From: Spizellomyces punctatus DAOM BR117
Taxonomy: Eukaryota
Direction: 5' to 3' (one strand)
NCBI GenBank assembly: GCA_000182565.2
Contig: KQ257457.1
Length of the DNA: 64,000 nucleotides
Under the pieces are notes generated by a model. It saw nothing but the letters and a program-made list of their open reading frames with translations, was not told where the DNA came from and did not search any database. A program made the position numbers and the translations under genes. Every line of letters starts with the position of its first letter. The stretch's first letter is position 1. This document shows, piece after piece, positions 1,470 through 61,200 of the stretch.

Positions 1470-3130
1470 ATGATTACAGACGAGGTGATGAAGAAAGAAA
1501 CGAGTTCACCTTCTCCTTCCCCTCGCGGCATTGTAAGCTCTCCAACCAACAGCGTTAGTAAATCAATTCCTACAGGCTACCAAAAACAGCCAATTGAGAA
1601 AATGGTTCATGAGAACCAGCCGAAAGCAGCCTCACAGCCTCCAGACGTCGTTCAGCAGACAGCCAGTGCCGCGGAAGACGACGCCGTCCAAGAAAACTTC
1701 CCTTCGGGCCAGCAAATGCCAGTGGCAAGCCAAGTGGATGGTATGCCTGAGTCAGTTGATTGTGGAGAGTTGATGGATATTGACCCCGCTGAACAAGACG
1801 AAGAGGAGGATGACGAATATACAGATTCGGAAGTCAGCAGTTTGCATCCTCAAGATGAGATAGTCACTGCTAGTGACAGAAGATCTTGTGAACGTAAAGA
1901 GTCTATTTTTGAAACGTCAACCGAATCACTCCTGCGCAATGCAGAAAGAGGCCCTAGGCGCAAGCCAAAACGCAAGCGAACCTCGCCCGAACAGCTATCG
2001 GATCTCCTCTCCGTTTTCGATAAAACCGACACACCCTCCTACGAAATTCGGGAGCAGCTAGCGAAGAAGTTGAGAATGACGAATCGCGAGGTTCAGGTAC
2101 AAAGTTGCAATTTTCACGTTAGCGTTGCTCCAATGATCGCTAATCTTAATCCTGGGGGTGTTAGGTGTGGTTTCAAAATAGGCGAGCTAAAATGAATCGC
2201 AACAAAAGCGGTGCAGAAAAGCGAGCAATCGGAACTTCCCCTACTGCGGGCAACAGTAAGAGAGAATCGATATCTTCTGGCTCCGGCAGGCGCAGTTCCA
2301 GTGCCCAGCAGCTTCCCATTTCTATGTCCAGACGTAGCAGCGTGCTCGTTCCACATCCCGGTAACCGTCGCCCAACACTCCTCATCAACCCAATGATCCC
2401 CATGGCACCAAATGCGGCTGTCTCGCCAATGGTCCCGTTCATTACTAGTCAAGGTCACTTTGTCAACCCTGCCCTGACTGCAACCGGCACCACGATGCCC
2501 CAATTTATCGCTCCAATGTTTGTTCCGCCAAGCACTCCCGTTTCGTCAAACGCCCCGCGACAACAGCAATCAAAATCTTCACAAGCCGCAACGACGCAGC
2601 CTGCTTCAGTCCCACACTTCTTTCCACCGCCGACCATGATCTATCCTATGCCACAGTATATCATACCCTTTCCTTACCAAGCTATCGGTCAGCAACCCGC
2701 TCTGGCCCAAGCTGCCGGGGGGACACATATGACTGCATTTCCCCTTATGGCAGCCAGGCGTGCCTCTCAGTCGACAGTGAAAACCAAGGAGAGTAATTCC
2801 ATGTCCGCACCAAACTATATTGCAAAATCAGATCCGAAAAGCGTAGTACAGGCCTTAAACCAATCACGCTCAATGACATCGGACGGTCAAGTTTTAGGCT
2901 CGTCGTCTGCAGTGGCCAACAAACTAGAGCCGAAGCTCCGCACTTCTGCGGATTCGACAGGCAAGGAAGATGACGCTACAGCCGCGGCAGAGTTGCTTTT
3001 AAATGCAGCTCACATCATGAGCCGCCGTGCATCAATGTCTGCCGAAGCTGTGGAGGCGGAACGAAACAACAAGGCGATATCAATTGGACAGGATAAGGGC
3101 CCATCTGAAAAGATCTGGAGGCCGTGGTAG
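1470..3130 (+). CDS. Homeodomain transcription factor with C-terminal WRPW motif (intron ~2097-2164)
   Basis: RKRTSPEQL..L..VF..P....RE.LA..L.MT.REVQ|VWFQNRRAK homeodomain joined across a GT-AG intron; protein ends EKIWRPW*. Confidence 0.9.
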
Positions 3131-7699: not shown

Positions 7700-8242
7700 C
7701 ATACAGTATGTAGACTGACCACTGTCAGCTCACGTGATCCGTAGGCGGAACTGGTTTCTGTCTTCAACAACCTCACGTGTGATCACGGGGGTAAGTGGTT
7801 AATGTCCACATACTGTACATAACCATCAAGGTTAACAGGCTCGAGGCCCGATTATTCCCATTCAACAGGCTCGGTGCCGACTATTCGTTGAACGTCCAAG
7901 AACCTTTCTGATGTCGTCTTGGGTTCCTGAAATCTCATACTCACATCGCATTCTGTAACCATATAATTATGTATCACGAAGTTCGCTCAATGAGAACATG
8001 AAATCAACTCACTCGGCTGCATATATGAGCGAAATGATGAAGTTCATTCTTTTAGGGTCGTGGCATCGGCTTTCATCGAATCTTGACTGCGCAGAAGCAC
8101 TCGCTGATTGTCAAGCAGATCGGAGATTTCCACGCTTTCTCGTGGCCGCCATATCGTCTTCTATAGATTCTTTATTGCGAAGAATCCGTCGCCCCGACGA
8201 TTTCTTGGACCGTCTATCCCGAAAGCTTGATTTTTCACACTG

Positions 8243-8650
8243 CGGGAGGTAGGTTATTGAGGCGCGAGGGGAGGGAGGTGGGTTGTTGCGGGAGGTAGGT
8301 TATTGACGTGCGCGCGAGAGAGGGAGGAATGTTATTGAGGCAAGTAGGTGATTGAGACGCACGCGCGAGGGAGGGAGGAATGCATGTTATTGAGGGAAGT
8401 AGGTTATTGAGCCGCGCGCGCGAGGGAGGGAGGAATGTAGGTTATTGAGGGAAGTAGGTTATTGACGCGCGCGCGAGGGAGGAGGGATGTAGGTTATCGC
8501 GAAGTAGGTTATTGAGGCGAGGAATGTAGCTTATCGCGGAAGTAGGTTATTGAGGCGAGGGATGTAGGTTATTGAGGGAGGTAGGTTATTGGCCTCAATC
8601 GCGCCAGGGAAGTATGTTATTGCGGGAGGGGAGGTAGGTCATTGTGTTGA
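8243..8650 (+). repeat. Degenerate G-rich minisatellite of ~16 GTAGGTTATT(GA) motifs separated by CGCGCG/GGGAGGGAGG spacers
   Basis: Motif read directly at ~8249, 8294, 8345, 8399, 8437, 8454, 8489, 8504, 8526, 8542, 8563, 8581, 8612, 8634 plus truncated copies. Confidence 0.9.
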
Positions 8651-9314
8651 ATTGCTGTGGATGATGGAGGGGGGGAGGGGAGGGGGACTCGGGAATGCCT
8701 CTCTTTTATGTGAAAATCCGCCCGTGCAAGAGACTGCGCAAAAGATCTAGGCTAAAATGCCCCCACATGGACTGGGCGTTATCTTCCCTTCTTCTCCTTT
8801 CCCCCTTAATGACATCCATCTCTATATCGATGTAACCACACCACAAGCGGTTCGAATGGAATACCCCATACAAAAGGGGAACATTTGTATGATTCCAATG
8901 GAAACCATGGGTTTATTTCTCGTCTTGTTCTGTCCCTGAAAGTAGCCACCAGGGCCACCATGGTCTACACCAGGATGACAGCGTTTTGTGTTATCTGATT
9001 ACGCGAGTCTCTATCATCGTATTATGTAAAAGGTGAGGGTCTCTTGTTGCGGATATTCGCATCACTGGTTCGACTTCAATCGATATATAGGCAGAGGTAC
9101 ATACATAGTGTGTGGGAAAATAGAAATGTCAGTGCCACGGAGCATTGCAGCCAGTGAATTAACCACACTTATTGTGAACCTCACGAAGATAAACAAAAAA
9201 ACGGGTCCAATATGTGCAGCCATGAACGGTGCAATTACTACATCTATGAGAAGAATATTCTGCAGTTTGCCACCTGCATGATGCTCTATGACTCAATCTA
9301 TCCACTCTTTTTTC

Positions 9315-9322
9315 TATATAAA
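9315..9322 (+). promoter_or_regulatory. TATA box of ghost element A cassette
   Basis: TATATAAA starting 100 nt upstream of ATG 9415; same spacing in copy B. Confidence 0.6.
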
Positions 9323-9414
9323 CCCCCCCTTGTCTGCCCCCCATCTTGTTTCTTTATCCCTCGACTCTCAAAGCATCTGCCCAACGCTCACGCAGCACTC
9401 TCAAGTCCATCATC

Positions 9415-9692
9415 ATGAGAATGCCGCTCTGGTGTCGAGGTCCTCGCCCTCCCGACAAAAACAACATAACCCCTTGCAAACACTATTACTGCTATGCTGT
9501 AATGATCGCAGGTATGCATTATCTTTGTATTTTCCCACGCCCGTATTCCGAGTCTAATTCTGATATACCTTAGTATCTGAACATCCTCCGACTAAAGAAT
9601 TTCGGAAGGGCTTAGTAGGATTTCTCTCGTGTGGTGGGCTTAGTTACCCAGTTAGAACAACCGTAATGTATTGCATGTGTAATTGGGTCTAG
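9415..9692 (+). CDS. Putative spliced 71-aa micro-ORF inside ghost element A (exons 9415-9511, 9574-9692)
   Basis: GTATGC..GTCTAAT..TTAG intron; spliced peptide MRMPLWCRGPRPPDKNNITPC...KGLVGFLSCGGLSYPVRTTVMYCMCNWV*; homologous ORF in copy B. Confidence 0.45.
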
Positions 9693-9728
9693 TGGTAGTT
9701 GGTTGGTTGTAAGGAGAGAATTACTTGG

Positions 9729-9817
9729 CTTTTCCGAACCAGTTATCGCTGGTTTATTCCCTGGTGTATTGTGTTGTGACATTTGTTATTGCCAATACAC
9801 TAAATCACATGAATAGC
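9729..9817 (+). ncRNA. Fanzor omegaRNA-like RNA: 74-nt scaffold (9729-9802) + ~15-nt guide AATCACATGAATAGC
   Basis: TTTTCCG-AACCAG/CTGGTT stem-TATTCCCTG-GTGTATTG/CAATACAC stem-TA, matching the architecture and (from memory) sequence blocks of the Spizellomyces punctatus Fz1 omegaRNA. Confidence 0.8.
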
Positions 9818-10155
9818 ATCATGCATCACAAATCTGGCAATCCGTTTCCAACCATGGACACCATGGCAACGACGTGACTCATCGTAGACTGGGAGCGATT
9901 TCCAATTCTGCAAATGCACTCCACAAGCAAACATGTTGATCAAGGCATTCTCCGTGCGCTCGCTGCAAAAAAATTTGGGAGTGGGGAATGGCGCTAACGT
10001 GCAGGTCCCGTTGCTCAAGAAGGTTACCGTGGTATTCGGTACAGATAAATGTCCAGCAAAGTCGTCACTAAGGTATCGTGCACCGCGACAGTGTTGTCCT
10101 CTACACTGGCTTGGTTAGCCGGTATTAATAGTCTCTTCTCCTAGCTCCTTTTACG

Positions 10156-11959
10156 TCAATGAGCTCCCCCGTATCTATAAAAGTAATCCTCACATCCAAT
10201 TCTCGACCCTTCCAGAGGAAGCCGACCACTGCGAGTTATCCCTTTCACTTGGTAGTTTATGCAGACTTTCGGTTTCGCAGCGGTCAAATGGTTATTCTGA
10301 CTGGTTTCCCATTCAGGAAATGACCACACTGTCTCAATTGACCTCCGAGAGTGTTTGACATCTGCATCCATGTATAACCGAATAATGACAGTGGCGCTTC
10401 CACCAGCGACATCACCGCAATGACCGATGCAACTCGCTTGCTTTTCGGCACCAACAAGATCGTAGAGAGGACTTGACAAATAATAGAGATGCTATAATGT
10501 CAAACGGAGTATGCTCAGCAGACCGTATCTGTAGGCATGACTGTCCTGCACTGACACGTCCGGTCTTAGACTTTTCAGCAGGCACACCAATTATTGGCAG
10601 CTATGGCATTCGCATAAATAATTCAATATATAAAGTGGATACATGCGTGCAACGGTTTCTAATGCCTAATTATCCCTCATGAGGGGCCCACAAGGAGCCA
10701 AGCGGATGAATGAACTTCAGCTCTCCCCGTTCAAACTCCCAATCGTTCCCTGTCAGCCATGACAATGCTCCTAACCTGAATTCAGCAATGTCATTTACGT
10801 CACGCAATTGATCGCTTTTCAAGCTACGATATGCTGTCCCATCCACCCCGAAATCATCTGCTACACTTTCGTCAATGAGTCCATCAGCTGTCGCCCGAGC
10901 ACTAGCTGCACCGACAGCATCGTCGATGTTTTGTAGGATCTGTCGAAGCCCGTGAGGGATTTTCCTATATTTCCAATTCATCAGTACGACCAATCCGCAA
11001 AGGATGTTGTTGCTCGGACAATCGCTGGTACCTTTTTGCCTCCTTAATTTCTTCAGTATCACCGTTCAAGCTCTCTTTCAAGTCCAAAACAATCTGGGCC
11101 CGAGCTCGCCAGTACCAGGCCTCCGCACGATTGATTGCCTCCCTTAGTTCATTCTCGCTAACAATATGACCAGGCTTTTGGCCCTCGCCCGCGCTGAAAT
11201 ACTGAATAGTAGAGTGACATATTAGCCTTCACAGAGACCAGACGGTGACAGATCAATCGACGTCATACCTCAATGAAGTCCTTCACAGTTGCCGGAAAAG
11301 CTGGGACAATGGCTGTCGCCTGAAAGAGTAATTCGTGCGGAAAGGTAACATGATAGCGTGGGATCCCATCTACTATGCGGAGTGTCCACAAAAGAATTCC
11401 TGGGTAGGAACTTTGAGTAAATGTGTGTTTCAAAGGTAGCAGTACGGTATTAACCTACCGAAAGATTCCCACCGAGCCCAATAGCTTGAAATATCTTGGA
11501 CTGCATCCCAGGACCCGAATTGCTTGTCCATCAACTTTTGCTCCTGATCGGCAACCGCGTGAGCTGAGCCAAAGCATCAACATTTCCCTTGCCGTTTCGT
11601 AACCCCACTCACTGTTTCTGTGAAAGACCTTGCAATTTTACTCTCGTCCACGGCTTTAGTCAGAGCGTCAAAGCTCTGTCGGATCCTTCCAGCTGAACTC
11701 ACAGCAATGAGCCTTCCTTGCAGACTTTTGCTAAATATAAGATTAAAAACTCACTCTCGTCCTTAGCATTTGCTGCAAGATAAGCTGCTTCTATTCCCCA
11801 TCGGGTCAATACTAGCTGCAAGGCACCAGCCCTCCGCGCGATCTCACTGGGACTTCTTTTCAAAAGGGGTGGAGGGTTTGTCACAGTCGCATACTTCCTG
11901 GCGAATGTTTCGCAATGCCGCAGATTGCTTCGCCCTGCAATTAATTTTCGTAACGACAT
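10156..11959 (-). CDS. Hypothetical multi-exon protein, possible mitochondrial presequence; 3' boundary uncertain
   Basis: Collinear minus-strand ORF segments (11699-11959, 10670-11062, 10156-10479); N-terminus MSLRKLIAGRSNLRHCETFARKYAT is Arg-rich and amphipathic-looking; divergent from SAPS gene. Confidence 0.45.
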
Positions 11960-24381: not shown

Positions 24382-24679
24382 GTAATGGGTTGGACGGGAG
24401 CAAAGGAAGGAACGCACACAATTGTGATGATGATTCCTGTTGGCATGGCAATTGGCGCCAGCGCGTCCTCCGCGACCTTTTAGCGGGTCAGCTAAACAGA
24501 TCCCATCGCACGCAGAAACAAAGCGGCCAAAGGAGCAGAAAGGAGGCGGCCATAACTCAATTGTGTGCTCGAGAACATGGGAAAATACGTCCGGGCACGA
24601 TCAGTATGCAAGTCATGCCGACCACAGAATTGCTCACAAAGGTGTAGGTGTTATGCGATTAAGACGTCCAGCGTACTTA

Positions 24680-24904
24680 GTGTAGAGGTGACAGAAACTG
24701 GCACTAACTACTACACCAGGGGATAGTCTGGCTACTACCATACTTTTACGTTTTCATTACCAGCCCAAAGCGGGTATCGAGACGTACTCACGGCATGGTT
24801 GAGCTCAGATCGGTCAGTCCGTCTCTTTGCGCAGGCTGAGAGGCGGCTGATAATATCAAAATTATTCTAATTATGTGAAATATGGCTAATATGATGATGT
24901 ACAC
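24680..24904 (-). mobile_element. Partial/derived Fanzor ghost element, copy C (right end clear, left end tentative)
   Basis: 24678-24721 differs at only 2 positions from 47160-47203 (right TIR/omegaRNA 3' stem of copy B); possible left end GTGTAC.. at 24904 with TA at 24905-24906 (TTTA rather than CATA). Confidence 0.6.
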
Positions 24905-24940
24905 TAAATGAACCTATTACTGAACAAAGCTACGCCCGTT

Positions 24941-26395
24941 TCACGCTCGGAGACCGCATGCCTCTTCAATTTTACATTGAAGTACAGATAGCGCATCTTG
25001 CTTGAACATTAGAGCCCCATGGGCAGTCTTCTCAAGCCATAACAGTTCGACGTTCGAATTTTGAAGATACTGCCTAACTGCCTGCGAGGGAACTATCTGA
25101 TCGTTGCTCGACAAGAGAACGAGGTGTTGTTCACTTTTCGGGAGGTCCTCCTTGAATAATACATTTTCGGACCAATTAAAGTGTCGAGCGAGCGAGTGCG
25201 CAATGTAGAGCTCTCGAGAGACGAAATAATGCATCAGGAGCTCAGTAGTCGTCGTCGGTGCACGATACACGAAATTGTAAGCAATGGCTGGGTGAACCAG
25301 AAGGAAGACAATTGGATCAAGGAATAATGTAGAGGCGACCATATCAGGTCTATGGTGGATCATCCAACTCACAGCAGCCGTTCCGAGAGAATGAGCGATA
25401 AAGCAGGCTTTAGTGTGATTATGCCTGGTCAAGATGGTAGCGAGACTCGATACGGTATCTTCGATGCTAGGAACGGTCTCCGCAAGACGCATTGACACAT
25501 GCGGCCAATCGAGGAGGAACACATCAACATCGCGCGGCAAACGGGCCACAAGCGGCATATAATGCAGGAACCCGATGCCAATTCCGTGGATGAATACTAT
25601 AGGACGAGTATCCTCTAGTTTTTTTGCAGACGAAGATCCTGGGCGGTAAAAGTACCGCTGGCGAGTACCGGTAGTGTTCCCCTTGGCCGTAACTGAAGCT
25701 TCTCGAAAACCCAGAAACCGCAAGAAAACATGTCCGATAGCGTGCATGATCGAGATGGTTACGTAATATATGAAGGGTCGATGCAGCATTTGCATCTTAT
25801 CTATTGTCAACCGAATGCATTTGACGCGTTTATCGTACCCATCTTTGAGCCGATACTGAATTCGCTGCTCGGTTTCTTTGACCATCTCATCCACCTCTTC
25901 CAATTCTAAGTCATTAAGCTCGGTGTATTCCTTGTCGAAAAATGCCCAGGCAGCCCATTCAGCTACGTTCCCCCGGCGAATCTGCTCGATCGGAGTCTCA
26001 AAAAACCAGCCCTCAATCATCTTCCTTATGCTGGAGGCGTCTCCGATTGCGTTCAAACACTTTGCCAGAAGCGTCCGTCTCTCATCTGCATCCCGTGCAG
26101 CGTGTGCGGTTTGGCGCCTAGACCGTAATCTGTTGAAGGTATACAAGTGATACGGCAACCAGAGGGCCTCCACTAGCATCCATGTCGTATAGATATTGAA
26201 GGCAACACCCTTCCACCCGTAAGGGTAATTGGGGTATGCCAAGTCACGTCCGTGGATGCCATGCAAAAGAAAGTAGAGCAGACCAGCCACATACACATAG
26301 GCGAGCGGTGTAATACCAACAATAAGGAGGATAAGCAATTGACAAGCTCGGTAGCTGAGTGATTTGACGTCCATCGCTGACAGAACTCTTGGCAT
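24941..26395 (-). CDS. Membrane-anchored alpha/beta hydrolase fold protein
   Basis: Long intronless ORF; N-terminal TM helices; PIVFIHGIGIG, IAHSLGT nucleophile elbow, DQIVP, HG motifs; start codon uncertain. Confidence 0.85.
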   Translation of the reverse strand: MPRVLSAMDVKSLSYRACQLLILLIVGITPLAYVYVAGLLYFLLHGIHGRDLAYPNYPYGWKGVAFNIYTTWMLVEALWLPYHLYTFNRLRSRRQTAHAARDADERRTLLAKCLNAIGDASSIRKMIEGWFFETPIEQIRRGNVAEWAAWAFFDKEYTELNDLELEEVDEMVKETEQRIQYRLKDGYDKRVKCIRLTIDKMQMLHRPFIYYVTISIMHAIGHVFLRFLGFREASVTAKGNTTGTRQRYFYRPGSSSAKKLEDTRPIVFIHGIGIGFLHYMPLVARLPRDVDVFLLDWPHVSMRLAETVPSIEDTVSSLATILTRHNHTKACFIAHSLGTAAVSWMIHHRPDMVASTLFLDPIVFLLVHPAIAYNFVYRAPTTTTELLMHYFVSRELYIAHSLARHFNWSENVLFKEDLPKSEQHLVLLSSNDQIVPSQAVRQYLQNSNVELLWLEKTAHGALMFKQDALSVLQCKIEEACGLRA

Positions 26396-55043: not shown

Positions 55044-55255
55044 GCGTTTGTGTTGTTTTTACCTGATTACGTGTACAGGGAATATGCACTTTTGTTTGGA
55101 TGCCTATGGAGAACGCGCGTGATGTTATATAGTGTATTACGGAAAACCATTCCGCATTCTGCAATAGATCACACTGCCCATGACAAACAAGAATTCATGA
55201 CCTGCAACCATCTAAAGCAGCTCAGCTGTTGTCACCGTTCTTGTAGATTGTTGTG

Positions 55256-58200
55256 ATGCTTCCTACTATCACGCGCGATGCCATTTCCCTGCCGCATCCC
55301 ATCCTTCATCCCTCACCATTTGGCAACAACAGTGGATGCGCTGGCATGTCGACCACACAGAGCTTCACAGGACATGTGGATCCTGATAGAATACCAATTT
55401 TCATAAACAGCCTACCAGATCGAGAACGGCGCATTCACAAAGCTCGACGAGCACCTGCCCCGTCAACGGCTCCTCCGGGCGGTCCAAGTAGCTTTCCCAC
55501 TAGCGATGGCAATACGAGATCTAATTTGGGGAAGGTAGGAGGGTTAGTGACGTCTGGCATGGGTTCCCGGAAGGTCTCCTTTCACGCAGGGGTGGGAGGA
55601 TCTGCAAAGGCTGGGGAACAGCGAAAGCGGGCGAGGAAGGTAATATGCAGCGTATGTCAACCTATCATTGATCTTCAAATTCATTCCTTGTTTGGCGATG
55701 TTATTCAGGTTGTTCAATCAACACTGTCAGTTGCGGATTACCATGTTTTACCCATGACTTCTTTGCAAAGCTCCTTGCAACCAGCGACAACTCCACTCTC
55801 CCCACCCCGTCGTCACTTTCAGCGTAAGCAAGGGAGTACCATAAGGTCGGACACCTTGGAAGAGCTTCGACCCAGCTCCAATGTTGTCCTGAGTCCGCGG
55901 AAGAAGCCAAAGATTGGAGACTCTGCCTCCACTGGTCCTCCCGGGGAGTATTCGCGGCCCAGACAAGTGGATCGTTATTCAGCAACTAGCGGCTTCAACG
56001 ATGGCAGCACGATCCGAGACGGAGCTGCCGTTCAACCAGCGATTAAGCAGAAACCTTACAATCCCGAAGAAGTCCGCGAGTACATGAAGCAAAAGCGGAA
56101 GCAGAGGAAGAAGAAAAAAGGATTAGATATAGAGGAGGTGCCGCAAGAGCATCATCATATGAGAATGAAGCCATACGACGCCGAGAAGGTGCGGGCGTAC
56201 ATGCAGCAAAAGTTACTACAGCGGGATCTAGAAGAAAAAGCCAAAAGGCACGCACACAAAGAAAAGGCCAAGAAGACCGCAGACATGCTCGACAAGCTTG
56301 ATCTGTATCGTCGACAACAAAGGGAGATTCTTAGAAGGAAGGTAGAGACCGACACGAAGCGTGGATTTACCTTCAAGGCAACAGTACATACAGAGTCTGG
56401 GGATGGGATGGCAGACAGCGGGTCAAAAGACTACCCAGATTCCCAAGACATTGCTGCAGATTTGAATGAGCGGCTAAACCATGATGTCGACCAGCGCAAG
56501 GACGCCGGAATCATTCATATGGAGACTGATGAGGCTGAGGTACAGAAGCGTGCCCTCAAGCGCGTTCGCTCAAATGCAAAAGACGTCACTGCAATAGCCC
56601 CCCTTCACCGTTCACTCTCAGCACCTATACATAAGGAAATTGAAACCGAACTCGCACAGCCTGATCAGCACAATACTCCACGACAGGCGTGGCTCCCTCA
56701 GCCTAACACATCACCAAGGACGACTAGTCATCCAACACCATCTCAGCGAACTCAACCCAATGGCACGTTTCAGAGACTTCAAGCGCTAATGGTCACAGCT
56801 GAAGCATTACATCAACGTATTATCCGAACCCTGCCCAACACTGACGATGATACTTCCGTAACTGAAAGTTGTGCAGACCAGTCGTCAATGGATTGGACAA
56901 AAGAAGACGTGGCTCCTAGTTCGAGGCAGACGGATCGAATTCGAAACAAGACCGACCAGCATGTCCAGACTTTGCCCAACACTGACGATGATATTCCCGT
57001 AACTGAAAGCTATGCAGGCCAGCTGTCAATGGATTTGACAAAAGAAGACGTGGCCCTTGGTCCAAGGCAGACCGAACCAATCCGAAACAAGACCCACCAG
57101 CATGTGCAGACCCTGCCCAACACTGACGATGATATTTCCGTAACTGAAAGCTGTGCAGACCAGCCGCTAAGGGATTTGACAAAAGGACACGTGGCTCCTA
57201 GTCTAAGGCAGACCGAATCAATCCGAAACAAGACCCACCAGCACGTTGAGCCGCTTCCGCCATTAGGTGATCTGGAGTCTCCACCAATAGGGGACAAGTA
57301 TAGCGTGATAAATATCTTTACAAGGAAATTTACCATTGCTACCCTCGTTGCCCCTCATGATGCTAACGAGATGGAGGCGACCTGCGATGACGAGGTCATT
57401 GGGGGAGACATCATTGATGGTAGTGCTAGCGGTGACCAGCCATCAGAAGATTTGGACCCTGATAGTCATGATTCGGAACAGAAGGACTCTCAGTCTCACG
57501 ACCCTGATCGTCATGGTTCGGAACAGAGGAACATTCAGTCTCACGAGCCCGATAGTCATGATTCGGAACAGAAGGACACTCAGTCTCACATTGAAAGCGC
57601 TTATGAGTTGTCCAAACGTGATAACAATCCAGAGATCATTCCAGCTGATGGCCGTAAGGAGTCCTCGGAAAGATTTGAATCCCTTCGAGACACAAGCGTC
57701 AGCGGACCATCCACCAGTAATCGCATGAACGAAGATATGTCACCTTCGCAATTTAGCGATACCACAGATTCATCCGCTGTCTCAAGCGAATACTCAACCT
57801 CCAGATCGCAAATGAGCTACAGTTCATTTAACTCTCGCCGACACAGCCAGCCGCCTCGAACCGGCCGCCGGAACTATCATCGTGCTCCTCGGCGGCACGG
57901 AAGCACACGAGATGAGCTATTGTGTCCCTCTAGGCGATTATCACCACACTCGTTGTCCAGAAAATTGATGGCGGAGATCAACTTGCTAGAAGCTATTGAA
58001 GAGTCTCGGATTCAGCTCGCCGAACTTGAGACAACTGGTCGAACTGCTTTTGCGCAGAGTGAAGCTGTAACTTTGACACAAATCTTGGCCGAACGACAAA
58101 GGAAACATGACCGTGATTTGGAGGAGGCCAAGTACGAGAGGGAGCTGAAGGAGGCACAAATGGATTTAGGTGCACATGGCGTAGCAGAGACAGGGAGTCA

Positions 58201-61200
58201 AGCGGAGAACCAAAGAAATGATATGTATGACGAGGACTTTGAGGAGTTGTCTGACTTATTGTCTGTTGGAAGCGGCACCGCGGAGCCTTCTGGGAAGGCA
58301 AAGGACTTGGAAGACTTGTCTGACTTTTTATCTGTTGGAGGCGGCACCGCGGAGCCTTCTGGGAAGGCAAAGGACTTGGAAGACTTGTCTGACTTTTTAT
58401 CTGTTGGAGGCGGCACCGCGAAACCTTCTGGGAAGGGAAAGGACTTGGAGGACTTGGAGGACTTGTCTGACTTTTTATCTGTTGGAGGCGGCACCGCGAA
58501 ACCTTCTGGGAAGGCAAAGGACTTGGAGGACTTGGAGGACTTTTTATCTGTTGGAGGCGGCACCGCGAAACCTTCTGGGAAGGGAAAAGAATTGGAGGAC
58601 TTGTCTGACTTTTTATATGTTGGAGGCGGCACCGCGAAACCTTCTGGGAAGGGAAAAGAATTGGAGGACTTGTCTGACTTTTTATCTGTTGGAGGCGGCA
58701 CCGCGAAACCTTCTGGGAAGGCAAAGGACTTGGAGGACTTGTCTGACTTTTTATCTGTTGGAGGTGGCACCGTGGAAGCTTCTGGGGACGATATTCCTGA
58801 AGATTTGCCACCGGAACCTGACTCTCCCGTCTCTACCGTTTCTGACCATGTGGTCCCGGCCGATTTGCCTCGCTATCTCTCTATTGCCGAATTGCAAACT
58901 CGGGAACAAGCAGCTGCTGCTGCAGATGCATCTGGAGTTAGTTTGGAAGAACACGCGTATGACAGTGACTCCTTTGTCCCTATTGTGGAGTCCAACGCTG
59001 TACACAAGGCGCCTGAGGACGGTCCAGATATCGTGGAAGAAGTCCAATCTCAGTACGATAACGACTCGTTCGCTTCATCTGTGGAGCACAGTGATTTACA
59101 TAAGAGAGAACTGGTCGCTGAGGACAATCCATGCGGTGAGCTGGCTCGTCGCATAGAGCTTCTTCGGCGACAGATTGCTGAACGGAAACGAAAAGCCAAA
59201 CTTTTATATCAAGAGAAGCTTCAAAAGCAGCAAACTGTGAGACAGCGGATGAGGGAGACGGAAATGAAGTTGAAGCAACAGTTAGAGGTACGGGGTTTCG
59301 GACGACTATACGTGCGCTTTTCAATGAAATCCAATTCATCTTCCTTTGCAGGCGATCAATTCCATCATTTATCGAACTGAAGCGGAGATTGTGACGATTG
59401 GCATGGGGGTGGAACTGGATGTCGAGAGTTATACGTCTTTGTCAGCTGCTTCTATTGCCCGACAGTCTGTACCTCTCGAGCAACGAGAACAAGCGGCGGC
59501 TGCTGCAGATGCATCTGGAGTTAGTTTGGAAGAACAAGCGTATGATAGTGACTCCTTTGTCCCTATTGTGGAGTCCAACGATGTACATAAGGACGGTGCA
59601 GATATCGTGGAAGAAGTCCAATCTCAGTACGATAACGACTCGTTTGCTTCATCTGTGGAGCACAGTGATTTACATAAGAAAGAACTGGTCGCTGTGGAGT
59701 CCAACGATGTACACAAGGCGCCTGAGGACAGTTCAGATATCGTGGAGGAAGTCCAATCTCAGTACGATAACGACTCGTTTGCTTCATCTGTGGAGCCCAG
59801 TGATTCACATAAGGGAGAACTGGTCGCTGAGGACAATCCGGCTGCCATGGATGACATCCAAAATGAATACGATAGCGACTCATTTGTCCCTATTGTGGAG
59901 TCCAACGATGTACATAAGGACGGTGCAGATATCGTGGAAGAAGTCCAATCTGAGTACGATAACGACTCGTTTGCTTCATCTGTGGAGCACAGTGATTCAC
60001 ATAAGGGAGAACTGGTCGCTGAGGACAATCCGGCTGCCATGGATGACATCCAAAATGAATACGATAGCGACTCATTTGTCCCTGTTGTCGAGTCTACCGA
60101 TTTGCACAAGGCGCCTGAGGACGGTCCAGATATTGTGGAAGTCCAATCTCAGTACGATAACGGCTCCTTTGCTTCATCTGTAGAGCACAGTGATTTACAT
60201 AAGGGAGAACTGGTCGCTGAGGACAATCCGGCTGCTAAGGATGAAGTCCAAAATGAATACGATAGCGACTCATTTGTCCCTATTGTGGAGTCCAACGATG
60301 TACATAAGGACGGTGCAGATATCGTGGAAGAAGTCCAATCTGAGTACGATAACGGCTCGTTTGCTTCATCTGTGGAGCATAGTGATTTACATAAGAGAGA
60401 AATGGTCGCTGACGACGGTTCAGCTGCGGTGGAAGAAGTAGATGAGGACGACAAGAACCGGTTTGTTTCGTTTGTGGAGCCCAGCGATTTATGCAAGGGC
60501 GCTGAGGACCATCCGGCTGCCATGGAAGAAGTCCAAGATGAGTACGATAGCGAGTCATTTGTCCCTGTTGTCGAGTCTCCCGATGTGCGCGTGGGAGAAA
60601 TGTCCGTTGAGGACAATCCCACTGCGATAGAAGAAGTCCAAGATGAGTACGATAGCGACTCATTTGTCCCTGCTGTCGAGTCTACCGATTTGCGCGTGGG
60701 AGGAGAAATGTCTGCTGAGGACAATTCCAATCCCACTGCGATAGAAGAAGTCCAAGATGAACACGATAGCTCATTTGTCCCTGTTGTCGAGTCTACCGAT
60801 TTGCCCGTGGGAGAAATGTGCGCTGAGGACAATCCCGCTGCGATAGAACAAGTCCAAGATGCATACGATAGCGACTCATTTGAGCCTGTTGTCGAGTCTA
60901 CCGATTTGCGCGTGGGAGAAGTGTCCGCTGAGGACAATCCCACTGCGATAGAACAAGTCCAAGATGAAGACGATAGCGACTCCTTTGTCCCTGTGGTCGA
61001 CTCTGTAGATTTACACAAGGAAGAGCAAGACGCGATTCTAGAGCAGGTGGATCAAGATGTGAAGCTCGATGTAGATTTATCCGCTAAAGGATTGGAGACA
61101 TCCGTGGACCCTTCTGCAGAGGAGGATATCGTTGACCAGCTTTTGGCGGACTTGTTGGACGACGCCATCAAAGGTGCGTTGGTCATTTGTGTTGTTCTCG

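What the first reader, a model, noticed from the sequence alone, without database searches (positions are those of the whole stretch)
9315..9802. Ghost elements carry a spliced Pol II-type cassette (TATA - micro-ORF - intron - exon 2 - omegaRNA) instead of a nuclease gene
Seen in both A and B: TATA box 100 nt before an ATG, a pyrimidine-rich leader, a ~60-nt GT-AG intron with conserved CAG|GTAT donor, GTCTAAT branch point and TACCTTAG acceptor (9512-9573; 47452-47393), then ~155 nt leading straight into the scaffold. DNA between the left TIR and TATA shows no similarity by eye, so the cassette is what is conserved. Inference: ghost omegaRNAs are made from a dedicated capped, spliced host transcript and processed from its 3' UTR. 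I am not aware of this guide-expression module being described.
Basis: partly seen in the sequence, partly recalled or inferred. Interest (0 to 1): 0.92.

Follow-up and report, generated by a model that had tools for sequence, protein, structure and literature searches.

The report
Spliced mini-gene inside Fanzor ghost transposons
Two nuclease-less "ghost" Fanzor transposons in a Spizellomyces genome each carry a small spliced gene that runs straight into the guide-RNA scaffold, which suggests how these orphan guides are made.

Summary
Element A (window 9104-9802, +) and element B (47813-47160, -) match the published "ghost Spu-1" elements of Spizellomyces punctatus: 30-nt inverted repeats, CA before the left repeat giving CATA, no nuclease ORF, and a 75-nt omegaRNA scaffold spanning the right repeat.

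Both copies share a TATA box exactly 100 nt before an ATG and an ATG-free pyrimidine-rich leader. Both have a 60-62-nt GT-AG intron with a CTAAT branch motif, then 154-158 nt leading into the scaffold.

Public RNA-library contigs contain the predicted exon-exon junction 9511/9574. None of the three listed RNA contigs that reach that point retains the intron. Other RNA contigs run from the end of the ORF into the scaffold.

After splicing it runs 71 (A) or 74 (B) codons to a shared stop, and compensating indels keep it open.

That the ghost omegaRNA is cut out of this transcript's 3' end remains an inference, as do the transcription start, the cap and any role for the peptide. Ghost elements and their scaffolds are in print. 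I found no description of the spliced cassette in the passages I read; supplements were closed.

Verdict: partly supported, moderately interesting.

The parts
9104..9135 (+). Element A, left end: conserved CA (9104-9105) plus the 30-nt left inverted repeat (9106-9135). CA plus the first TA of the repeat reads CATA, the published SpuFz1 TAM.
   Evidence: The paper passages give 30-nt IRs, CA upstream of the 5' IR, and TAM 5'-CATA.
9136..9314 (+). Element A, variable segment between the left repeat and TATA.
   Evidence: 48% identity to the same segment of B. A-like copies of 9103-9217 exist elsewhere (X1 record 1).
9315..9414 (+). Element A, TATA box (9315-9322) and 92-nt pyrimidine-rich, ATG-free leader.
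   Evidence: The transcription start is not mapped.
9415..9511 (+). Element A, exon 1 coding part (32 codons plus 1 nt).
9512..9573 (+). Element A, 62-nt GT-AG intron with a CTAAT branch motif.
   Evidence: Sequence. Joint 9511/9574 in RNA run X5 and in X1: table 5.
9574..9692 (+). Element A, exon 2 coding part with the stop at 9690-9692.
   Evidence: 93% identical to B.
9693..9727 (+). [quoted passage not shown]
   Evidence: 94% identical to B.
9728..9802 (+). Element A, 75-nt omegaRNA scaffold with two hairpins. Its last 30 nt are the right inverted repeat (9773-9802).
   Evidence: Position obtained by counting 75 nt back from the right end, as the paper describes. Fold -25.7 kcal/mol, z -5.5.
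9803..9817 (+). Element A, flank that would supply the 14-15-nt guide.
   Evidence: Inferred from the paper's description. X9 record 17 runs to 9813.
47782..47813 (-). Element B, CA (47813-47812) plus the 30-nt left inverted repeat (47811-47782).
47555..47654 (-). Element B, TATA box (47654-47647) and 92-nt leader.
47453..47554 (-). Element B, exon 1 coding part (34 codons).
47393..47452 (-). Element B, 60-nt GT-AG intron.
47270..47392 (-). Element B, exon 2 coding part with the stop at 47272-47270.
47160..47234 (-). Element B, 75-nt omegaRNA scaffold including the right inverted repeat (47189-47160). The guide flank is 47159-47145.
24673..24750 (-). Third, right-end-only copy (C). It has a B-like right repeat and stem 2, a different stem 1, and no cassette upstream.
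   Evidence: (family D11).

Best explanation
A and B are two of the 'ghost Spu-1' elements of Spizellomyces. These are non-autonomous, TA-flanked inverted-repeat elements that lack the Fanzor (SpuFz1) gene but keep its omegaRNA scaffold at the right end.

Their conserved interior is a small Pol II-type gene. It consists of a TATA box, a 92-nt ATG-free CT-rich leader, an ATG in good context, a host-type 60-62-nt spliceosomal intron, and a last exon. That exon holds the end of a 71-74-codon ORF, a 35-nt spacer and then the 75-nt scaffold.

Proposed mechanism:
1. The unit is transcribed and spliced. Splicing is shown by RNA-library contigs.
2. Transcription runs through the right end into the flank. 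This is partly shown.
3. SpuFz1, made in trans from a full-length locus, binds the 3' scaffold plus 14-15 nt of flank. The upstream part is trimmed away, as TnpB trims its own mRNA. This step is inferred.

In this reading the ghost copies the layout of the autonomous element, which is gene, then omegaRNA in the 3' UTR. A short spliced ORF stands in place of the nuclease gene. The ORF appears to be kept open; whether its peptide has a function is unknown.
For: Identity:
- Both copies have 30-nt IRs, CA before the left IR giving CATA, a 592-637-nt interior without a nuclease ORF, and a two-hairpin 75-nt right-end scaffold. This fits the paper's description of ghost loci and the CATA TAM.
- A window protein sits in a 90% cluster with a protein named from Spizellomyces sp. 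'palustris'.

Cassette:
- It is conserved in 2 of 2 full copies.
- The intron has the size and signals of ORF-joining introns of neighbouring genes, which are 52-73 nt with CTAAY.

Splicing:
- RNA-Seq run X5 has a contig with joint 9509->9572. With the cut moved by 2 this is 9511/9574, GT..AG, with 36 nt on the short side and 2 other letters in 118.
- Of the 7 X5 records listed (12 were laid), 3 reach the end of exon 1 and all 3 lack the intron. These are record 11 (the joint), record 12 (53 letters between 9495 and 9606 where the DNA has 110) and record 10 (loose end reading ...CAG|TATCTG).
- X5 depth in the intron bin 9529-9565 is 0.
- In X1 the joined form has depth 6244 in 2 contigs, against 257 for intron-bearing contigs.

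Co-transcription with the scaffold:
- X17 record 9 (9654-9803, metatranscriptome) and X5 record 16 (9666-9771) cross the scaffold's 5' border with more than 31 nt on both sides.
- X9 record 17 (9662-9813) is identical to the window and passes the right end by 11 nt.

ORF kept open:
- Two 3-nt indels and a compensating 1-nt/4-nt pair leave the same start and stop.
- The 3 substitutions in the WCRGPRPPD stretch are all synonymous.
- Of 10 listed population variants in the ORF, 5 are synonymous against 21% expected.

Precedent: TnpB processes its own mRNA into omegaRNA (PMC10278001; title and start of abstract seen in the listing).
Against: - No single contig links exon 1 to the scaffold. All laid data are short contigs, which cannot show starts, ends or strand.
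- One spliced X5 contig (record 10, depth 2.2) carries 60 further letters upstream of 9359. By my count this reaches past the TATA position, so not all transcripts start behind the TATA box.
- X1's library type is not on record (labelled 'DNA?'). If it is DNA, intron-less DNA copies exist and the RNA junctions could come from them.
- RNA libraries can contain DNA.
- The mature omegaRNA reported from Fz loci is only 88-90 nt, and nothing here shows how its 5' end is made.
- The middle ~22 codons of the ORF are read in different frames in A and B although the DNA there is nearly identical.
- No homologue of either exon peptide was found anywhere.
- Outside the scaffold the last exon shows no convincing fold: z -2.5 in A, -0.2 in B.
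Confidence: 0.5

Rival explanations
1. The cassette is mainly a protein-coding cargo gene. The ghost elements spread a 71-74-residue cysteine-containing peptide, for example a factor acting with or against Fanzor or the unknown transposase. The omegaRNA is merely co-located, or is made independently.
For: - The ORF is open across the splice junction in both copies, with the same start and stop despite four indels.
- The N-terminal 22 and C-terminal 28 residues are conserved.
- Changes in the conserved N-terminal stretch are synonymous only.
- Listed variants in the ORF split 5 synonymous to 5 non-synonymous, against 21% synonymous expected.
- The ATG has A at -3, and the leader has no upstream ATG.
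Against: - The central third is frame-shifted between A and B.
- The part of exon 2 that is 100% identical as DNA is read in two frames, which points to constraint on the nucleic acid rather than the protein.
- No homologue or Pfam family was found.
- Only two copies could be compared.
Confidence: 0.2
2. The ghost omegaRNA is transcribed on its own from within the last ~100 nt of the element. The TATA-ORF-intron unit would then be a captured or relic host-like gene piece that is transcribed but irrelevant to guide production.
For: - The mature omegaRNA is short (88-90 nt).
- 75-nt ghost scaffolds alone work with SpuFz1 when driven by U6 in human cells.
- Copy C keeps only the right end, without a cassette.
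Against: - RNA-library contigs cross the scaffold's 5' border.
- The segment from the intron's 3' end to the scaffold is the best-conserved part of the element, at 93-94%, whereas the repeats themselves are 55-63%.
- No donor gene was found.
Confidence: 0.2
3. The 'spliced' form is not made by splicing. On this reading it comes from intron-less DNA copies of the element, such as deletion variants or retrocopies.
For: - X1, labelled 'DNA?', holds the joined form at depth 6244.
- Other deletion joints exist in X1: 9226->9349 and 9611->9770.
Against: - The skipped piece is exactly GT..AG, with branch and acceptor signals conserved in both genomic copies.
- 2 of 2 full copies in the window keep the intron, whereas in X1 intron-side depth is about 1% of exon depth. 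That pattern is what an RNA library would give.
- Depths of long X1 contigs differ 3.7-fold (98.6 against 360.7).
Confidence: 0.07

Closest known systems
Ghost Spu-1 elements of Spizellomyces punctatus (Saito et al. 2023, Nature, PMC10432273; passages read)
   Same: 30-nt inverted repeats, CA before the left repeat, no Fz ORF, a conserved interior of several hundred nt, and a 75-nt omegaRNA scaffold over the right repeat with the guide taken from the flank.
   Different: In the passages I read, the paper calls the interior only 'a conserved region of around 550 nt'. The words intron, TATA and processed do not occur in its main text. Here the interior is resolved into promoter, leader, spliced ORF and 3' UTR, with RNA support for the splice.
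Autonomous Spu-1 / SpuFz1 locus
   Same: [quoted passage not shown] TA flanks and the CATA TAM are also shared.
   Different: The gene there is a 633-638-residue intron-less nuclease. The ghost ORF is 71-74 codons, spliced, and shows no similarity to any solved chain; the collection searched should include the deposited SpuFz1 structure 8GKH.
TnpB omegaRNA biogenesis from the nuclease's own mRNA (PMC10278001, listing) and nuclease-less IS200/605 derivatives (PATEs; recalled, not checked here)
   Same: The guide RNA lies at the 3' end of a longer transcript and is used by a nuclease that may be supplied in trans.
   Different: Those are bacterial, with no Pol II promoter, no intron, and no replacement ORF.
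Spliced small-RNA host genes of eukaryotes (snoRNA/miRNA host genes; general knowledge)
   Same: A Pol II, spliced transcript with weak coding potential whose main product may be a small RNA.
   Different: Those small RNAs usually lie in introns. Here the RNA lies in the last exon at the very end of a mobile element, and its 3' part comes from the insertion flank.

Membership tests
Ghost Spu-1 element (Fanzor-less omegaRNA element) | Two ~30-nt inverted repeats with CA upstream of the left one | tested here: met
   Left and right repeats pair within each copy, and CATAGTGTG is at both left ends. The canonical Fz-locus repeat was not available for comparison.
Ghost Spu-1 element (Fanzor-less omegaRNA element) | No Fz/TnpB-like ORF between the repeats | tested here: met
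   The interior is 592-637 nt. The longest stop-free frame of the spliced model is 94-97 codons. There are no Pfam hits.
Ghost Spu-1 element (Fanzor-less omegaRNA element) | 75-nt structured scaffold spanning the right repeat | tested here: met
   Both copies give the same two-hairpin fold: z -5.5 with 0 of 200 shuffles as good (A), and z -3.0 with 1 of 200 (B). By my reading of those folds, one stem-2 pair changes U-A to G-C between A and B.
Ghost Spu-1 element (Fanzor-less omegaRNA element) | Host is Spizellomyces punctatus | tested here: inconclusive
   The genus is supported. The species is inferred only from the presence of these elements.
Ghost Spu-1 element (Fanzor-less omegaRNA element) | The omegaRNA binds and guides SpuFz1 | not testable with these tools
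   Published for four ghost scaffolds, but not for these two copies.
Spliceosomal intron | GT-AG ends, branch motif, host-typical length | tested here: met
Spliceosomal intron | Exact exon-exon junction present in RNA | tested here: met
   in X5, 3 of 3 listed contigs reaching the exon 1 end lack the intron.
Spliceosomal intron | Joined form absent from genomic DNA | tested here: inconclusive
   X1 holds the joined form, but its library type is not on record.
Pol II promoter-driven gene | TATA box at a fixed distance upstream, ATG-free leader | tested here: met
Pol II promoter-driven gene | Mapped capped 5' end and poly(A) site | not testable with these tools
   Only contigs were available, which show no starts or ends.
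Protein-coding gene | ORF open across the junction in all copies | tested here: met
   2 of 2 copies, at 71 and 74 codons.
Protein-coding gene | Purifying selection on the amino-acid sequence | tested here: inconclusive
   Listed variants split 5 synonymous to 5 non-synonymous, against 21% synonymous expected. However, the central third is frame-shifted between the copies.
Protein-coding gene | Homologues or a known domain | tested here: not met

The most novel reading that the evidence does not exclude
Ghost Spu-1 elements are not empty shells. They would be bifunctional genes: one spliced Pol II transcript yields a conserved 71-74-residue peptide and, from its 3' end, a trans-acting omegaRNA. 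The peptide would act in the Fanzor/transposon cycle as a partner, regulator or inhibitor of SpuFz1 or of the still unknown transposase. That could explain why ghosts (134 loci) outnumber Fz loci (42) about three to one.
Probability: 0.15. Interest if true: 0.8.

Novelty: new variant of a known kind. Interest (0 to 1): 0.55.

Why it matters
How eukaryotic Fanzor guide RNAs are made in their native hosts is not settled. The published work drives them from U6 or yeast vectors.

The paper counts 134 ghost loci against 42 Fz loci. If each ghost carries its own promoter, intron and kept-open ORF feeding the scaffold, then most of the cell's guide repertoire would come from dedicated Pol II transcription units. 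That turns the biogenesis question into simple tests: TATA and splice-site mutants, 5' end mapping and long reads.

It also offers a natural Pol II design for expressing omegaRNAs. Finally, it raises the question of whether a small peptide travels with the guides.

Tried and rejected
Searches and look-ups that returned nothing useful:
- No whole genome is held for the window, so a survey of all ghost loci was impossible.
- Rfam gave nothing relevant in 8500-10500: one miRNA match at E 0.88, well below its gathering score.
- Two exact-pattern scans of metagenome contigs, using an exon 2 motif and a scaffold motif, gave 0 hits.
- Exon 2 peptide against the 5.8-billion-protein set, lengths 71-2000: no candidate.
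- Read-through exon 1 ORF against 1.84 billion representatives: 3 hits. By inspection all are translated tandem repeats, so they are spurious.
- PDB sequence search with the exon peptides: 0 hits for exon 2, and only chance hits at E above 1 (antibody, lysozyme) for exon 1. None is a Fanzor chain.
- Pfam: 0 families for the four peptides.
- Earlier scan notes: none.

Weak or unusable results:
- Folding the whole last exon gave no robust structure: z -2.5 in A, -0.2 in B.
- Uncovered parts (flanks 8900-9084 and 9825-9935 in X1; the end of the scaffold in X5) cannot be used as evidence.
- The 18 listed runs that I did not lay (X2-X4, X6-X8, X10-X16, X18-X22) have small shares and say nothing.
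- A possible degenerate left end for copy C near 24905 rests on an 8-nt match only, so I dropped it.

Rejected idea: that the ghost ORF is a remnant of the SpuFz1 N- or C-terminus. There is no similarity, and the paper says only the 75-nt region resembles Fz loci.

Full report
**What is in the sequence**

The window holds two full copies of one element: A at 9104-9802 on the + strand and B at 47813-47160 on the - strand. Exact 33- and 45-nt core motifs occur only at these two places, against 0 expected by chance.

Identity between A and B, segment by segment:

| Segment | Identity |
|---|---|
| Left 30-nt repeat | 63% |
| Left repeat to TATA | 48% (unalignable) |
| TATA to ATG (100 nt in both copies) | 62% |
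| Exon 1 | 78% |
| Intron | 72% |
| Coding part of exon 2 | 93% |
| 35-nt spacer | 94% |
| 75-nt right-end scaffold | 80% |

By my reading of the scaffold alignment, its first 42 nt are nearly identical and the terminal repeat is much more diverged.

- TATATAAA / TATAAAAG boxes.
- Leaders of 72% and 68% C+T without any ATG. These fall in the top 0.2% and 0.8% of 92-nt windows.
- GCAG|GTAT donors.
- AGTCTAATTC, with the branch A 16 nt from the intron end.
- ACCTTAG|TATCTG acceptors.

A loose search for the same signal layout finds introns that join long ORFs of neighbouring genes. Examples are 2097-2164 (+), 68 nt, joining 274 and 321 codons, and 48831-48780 (-), 52 nt, joining 115 and 103 codons. 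These neighbouring introns are inferred from ORF continuity only. By that comparison the ghost intron is of the host's ordinary type.

**What the elements are**

A 484-residue hydrolase encoded in the window (24944-26395, -) is on record in public protein sets. Its 90% cluster mate is named from Spizellomyces sp. 'palustris'.

Saito et al. 2023 (PMC10432273; section 7, all passages containing 'ghost', and further passages read) describe the following in S. punctatus:
- 42 loci with full or partial Fanzor genes.
- 134 'ghost Spu-1 elements' that lack the Fz ORF.
- Ghosts have 30-nt inverted repeats, a conserved CA before the left repeat, and 'a conserved region of around 550 nt'.
- A 75-nt omegaRNA scaffold spans the right repeat, and the guide is the next 14-15 nt of flank.
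- The SpuFz1 TAM is 5'-CATA.

A and B fit each point. CA plus the first TA of the repeat reads CATA at both left ends. The interiors are 637 and 592 nt with no long ORF. The last 75 nt fold into the same two hairpins in both copies: A -25.7 kcal/mol, z -5.5, 0 of 200 shuffles as good; B -20.0 kcal/mol, z -3.0, 1 of 200.

Bao and Jurka 2013 (PMC3627910, section 5 read) describe the parent SPu-1 element as about 2.1 kb, with one ORF, 33-bp TIRs and TA duplications.

**Is the intron spliced?**

No genome is held for the window, so I used public runs. The 801-nt element was found in part in 21 of 22 listed runs, none holding half or more of its sampled words, and 6 are on record as RNA. I laid four runs at 80% likeness; all are contigs, not reads.

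In X5, an RNA-Seq library of a root metagenome, 12 records were laid and 7 are listed. Three of the listed records reach the end of exon 1, and all three continue without the intron:
- Record 11 (2 other letters in 118) has the joint 9509->9572. With the 2-nt ambiguity this is 9511/9574, ends GT..AG, with 36 nt on the short side.
- Record 12 has 53 letters between 9495 and 9606, where the DNA has 110. By my arithmetic that is the size expected for a B-like spliced form.
- Record 10 ends in a loose tail reading ...CAG|TATCTG.

X5 depth in the intron bin 9529-9565 is 0, against 26-50 in the flanking exon bins.

In X1 the joined form stands in 2 contigs at depth 6244, against 257 for the two intron-bearing contigs. 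X1's library type is not on record and the tool labels it 'DNA?'. I read it as behaving like RNA, for two reasons:
- Both genomic copies in the window keep the intron. Its last 26 nt are over 80% conserved between A and B, yet the intron-side depth in X1 is about 1% of the exon depth.
- Its long contigs differ 3.7-fold in depth (98.6 against 360.7).

This reading of X1 is an inference. If X1 is DNA, intron-less copies exist, and that rival gains weight.

**Does the transcript reach the scaffold?**

Three contigs cross the scaffold's 5' border (9727/9728) with more than 31 nt on each side:
- X17 record 9 (soil metatranscriptome), 9654-9803.
- X5 record 16, 9666-9771.
- X9 record 17 (library type guessed as RNA), 9662-9813. 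It is identical to the window and runs 11 nt past the right end.

So RNA-library molecules that contain the scaffold also contain the end of the ORF. Several things are not shown:
- No contig spans from exon 1 to the scaffold.
- Contigs cannot give starts, ends or strand.
- One low-depth spliced contig (X5 record 10) extends 60 letters upstream of 9359. By my count that is beyond the TATA position, so some transcripts start further upstream.

**The ORF**

Unspliced, it ends at the acceptor TAG after 52 or 53 codons. Spliced, it runs 71 codons in A and 74 in B to a shared stop.

Evidence that it is kept open:
- The first 22 and last 28 residues are conserved.
- B differs from A by two 3-nt indels and by a 1-nt deletion that a 4-nt insertion 66-69 nt further on compensates.
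- The three substitutions in the stretch coding WCRGPRPPD are all synonymous.
- Of the 10 variants within the ORF listed for X1/X5, 5 are synonymous against 21% expected, and 6 lie at third codon positions. My own binomial estimate is P about 0.04, and the tool notes that 2 further variants are not shown.

Evidence against a protein under selection:
- The ~22 codons between the compensating indels are read in different frames in A and B, although the DNA at the start of exon 2 is identical.
- No homologue or domain was found.

I conclude that the frame is probably kept open. Whether that is for a peptide or only to keep the transcript mRNA-like cannot be decided from two copies. In the latter case, a stop in the last exon would avoid nonsense-mediated decay; this is my speculation.

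**Most likely mechanism**

The ghost mirrors the autonomous element. It has a promoter-driven gene whose 3' UTR is the omegaRNA scaffold, with the guide supplied by read-through into the flank.

- Shown: the conserved anatomy, the exon-exon junction in RNA libraries, and RNA-library contigs joining the ORF end to the scaffold.
- Inferred: initiation behind the TATA box by Pol II; one continuous precursor; and binding by SpuFz1 made in trans, with trimming of the upstream part. The precedent is TnpB, which processes its own mRNA (PMC10278001; title and start of abstract from the listing).

**Novelty**

Only two papers in the library hold both 'Fanzor' and 'ghost'.
- Saito et al.: the main text has 0 occurrences of intron, TATA, processed or polyadenyl, and mentions promoters only for U6 vectors.
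- The 2026 Nat Commun paper (PMC13434818; all 5 'ghost' passages read): it treats only the 74-76-nt scaffolds, 126 sequences in two major clades. A and B may represent those clades, since their right repeats are among the least conserved segments (whole scaffold 80% against 93-94% for exon 2 and the spacer).

Searches for Fanzor with non-autonomous, small RNA, polymerase II, biogenesis, spliced, or SpuFz1 with ghost and intron found nothing on a ghost transcription unit.

**Limits**

- Only two full copies were compared.
- All RNA evidence is from short contigs of environmental or unlabelled runs.
- No transcription start, cap, poly(A) site or strand was obtained.
- The link between this transcript and the mature ghost omegaRNA is untested.

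Noticed in passing
window 24673-24750 (-): A third copy with the right end only. It has a B-like 30-nt repeat and stem 2 (83% to B over 66 nt) but a different first hairpin, and no TATA/ORF/intron cassette upstream. It lies about 190 nt downstream of the stop of an alpha/beta-hydrolase gene (24941-26395, -). It may be a remnant of another Spu-1 subfamily or of an Fz-type locus.
   Followed up: partly
window 9773-9802 vs 47189-47160, and 9106-9135 vs 47811-47782: A and B have clearly different terminal repeats (left repeats 63% identical, right repeats also strongly diverged). Each copy's two repeats still match each other, and stem 2 of the scaffold is kept with one compensatory pair. This looks like two co-evolving ghost subfamilies, possibly the two scaffold clades reported in 2026.
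   Followed up: partly
X1 joints 9226->9349 and 9611->9770; X5 loose end at 9717: Other family members carry internal deletions. One lacks the TATA region and sits at the end of a 2109-nt contig. One lacks most of exon 2 and the scaffold. One RNA contig jumps from 9717 to a short, different right end.
   Followed up: no
window 8241-8614: A G-rich minisatellite of 46-60-nt units (GGGAGG...GTTATTGAGG) lies about 500 nt upstream of element A.
   Followed up: no
window 56823-61023: Several families of long tandem repeats (units of 45, 69, 141 and about 195 nt) lie inside very long ORFs (55247-59380 and 59328-61214, +), which suggests a highly repetitive protein gene.
   Followed up: no
window 9803-10114 and 47074-47159: A and B both point towards the 3' end of a convergent neighbouring ORF. 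Read-through that supplies the guide would therefore be antisense to the neighbour's 3' end.
   Followed up: no
Parts of the element (shares of 0.05-0.19 of the sampled words) are held by runs labelled with at least seven further coded organisms and by root and soil metatranscriptomes. Only X1, X5, X9 and X17 were laid, so the rest is unverified.
   Followed up: partly
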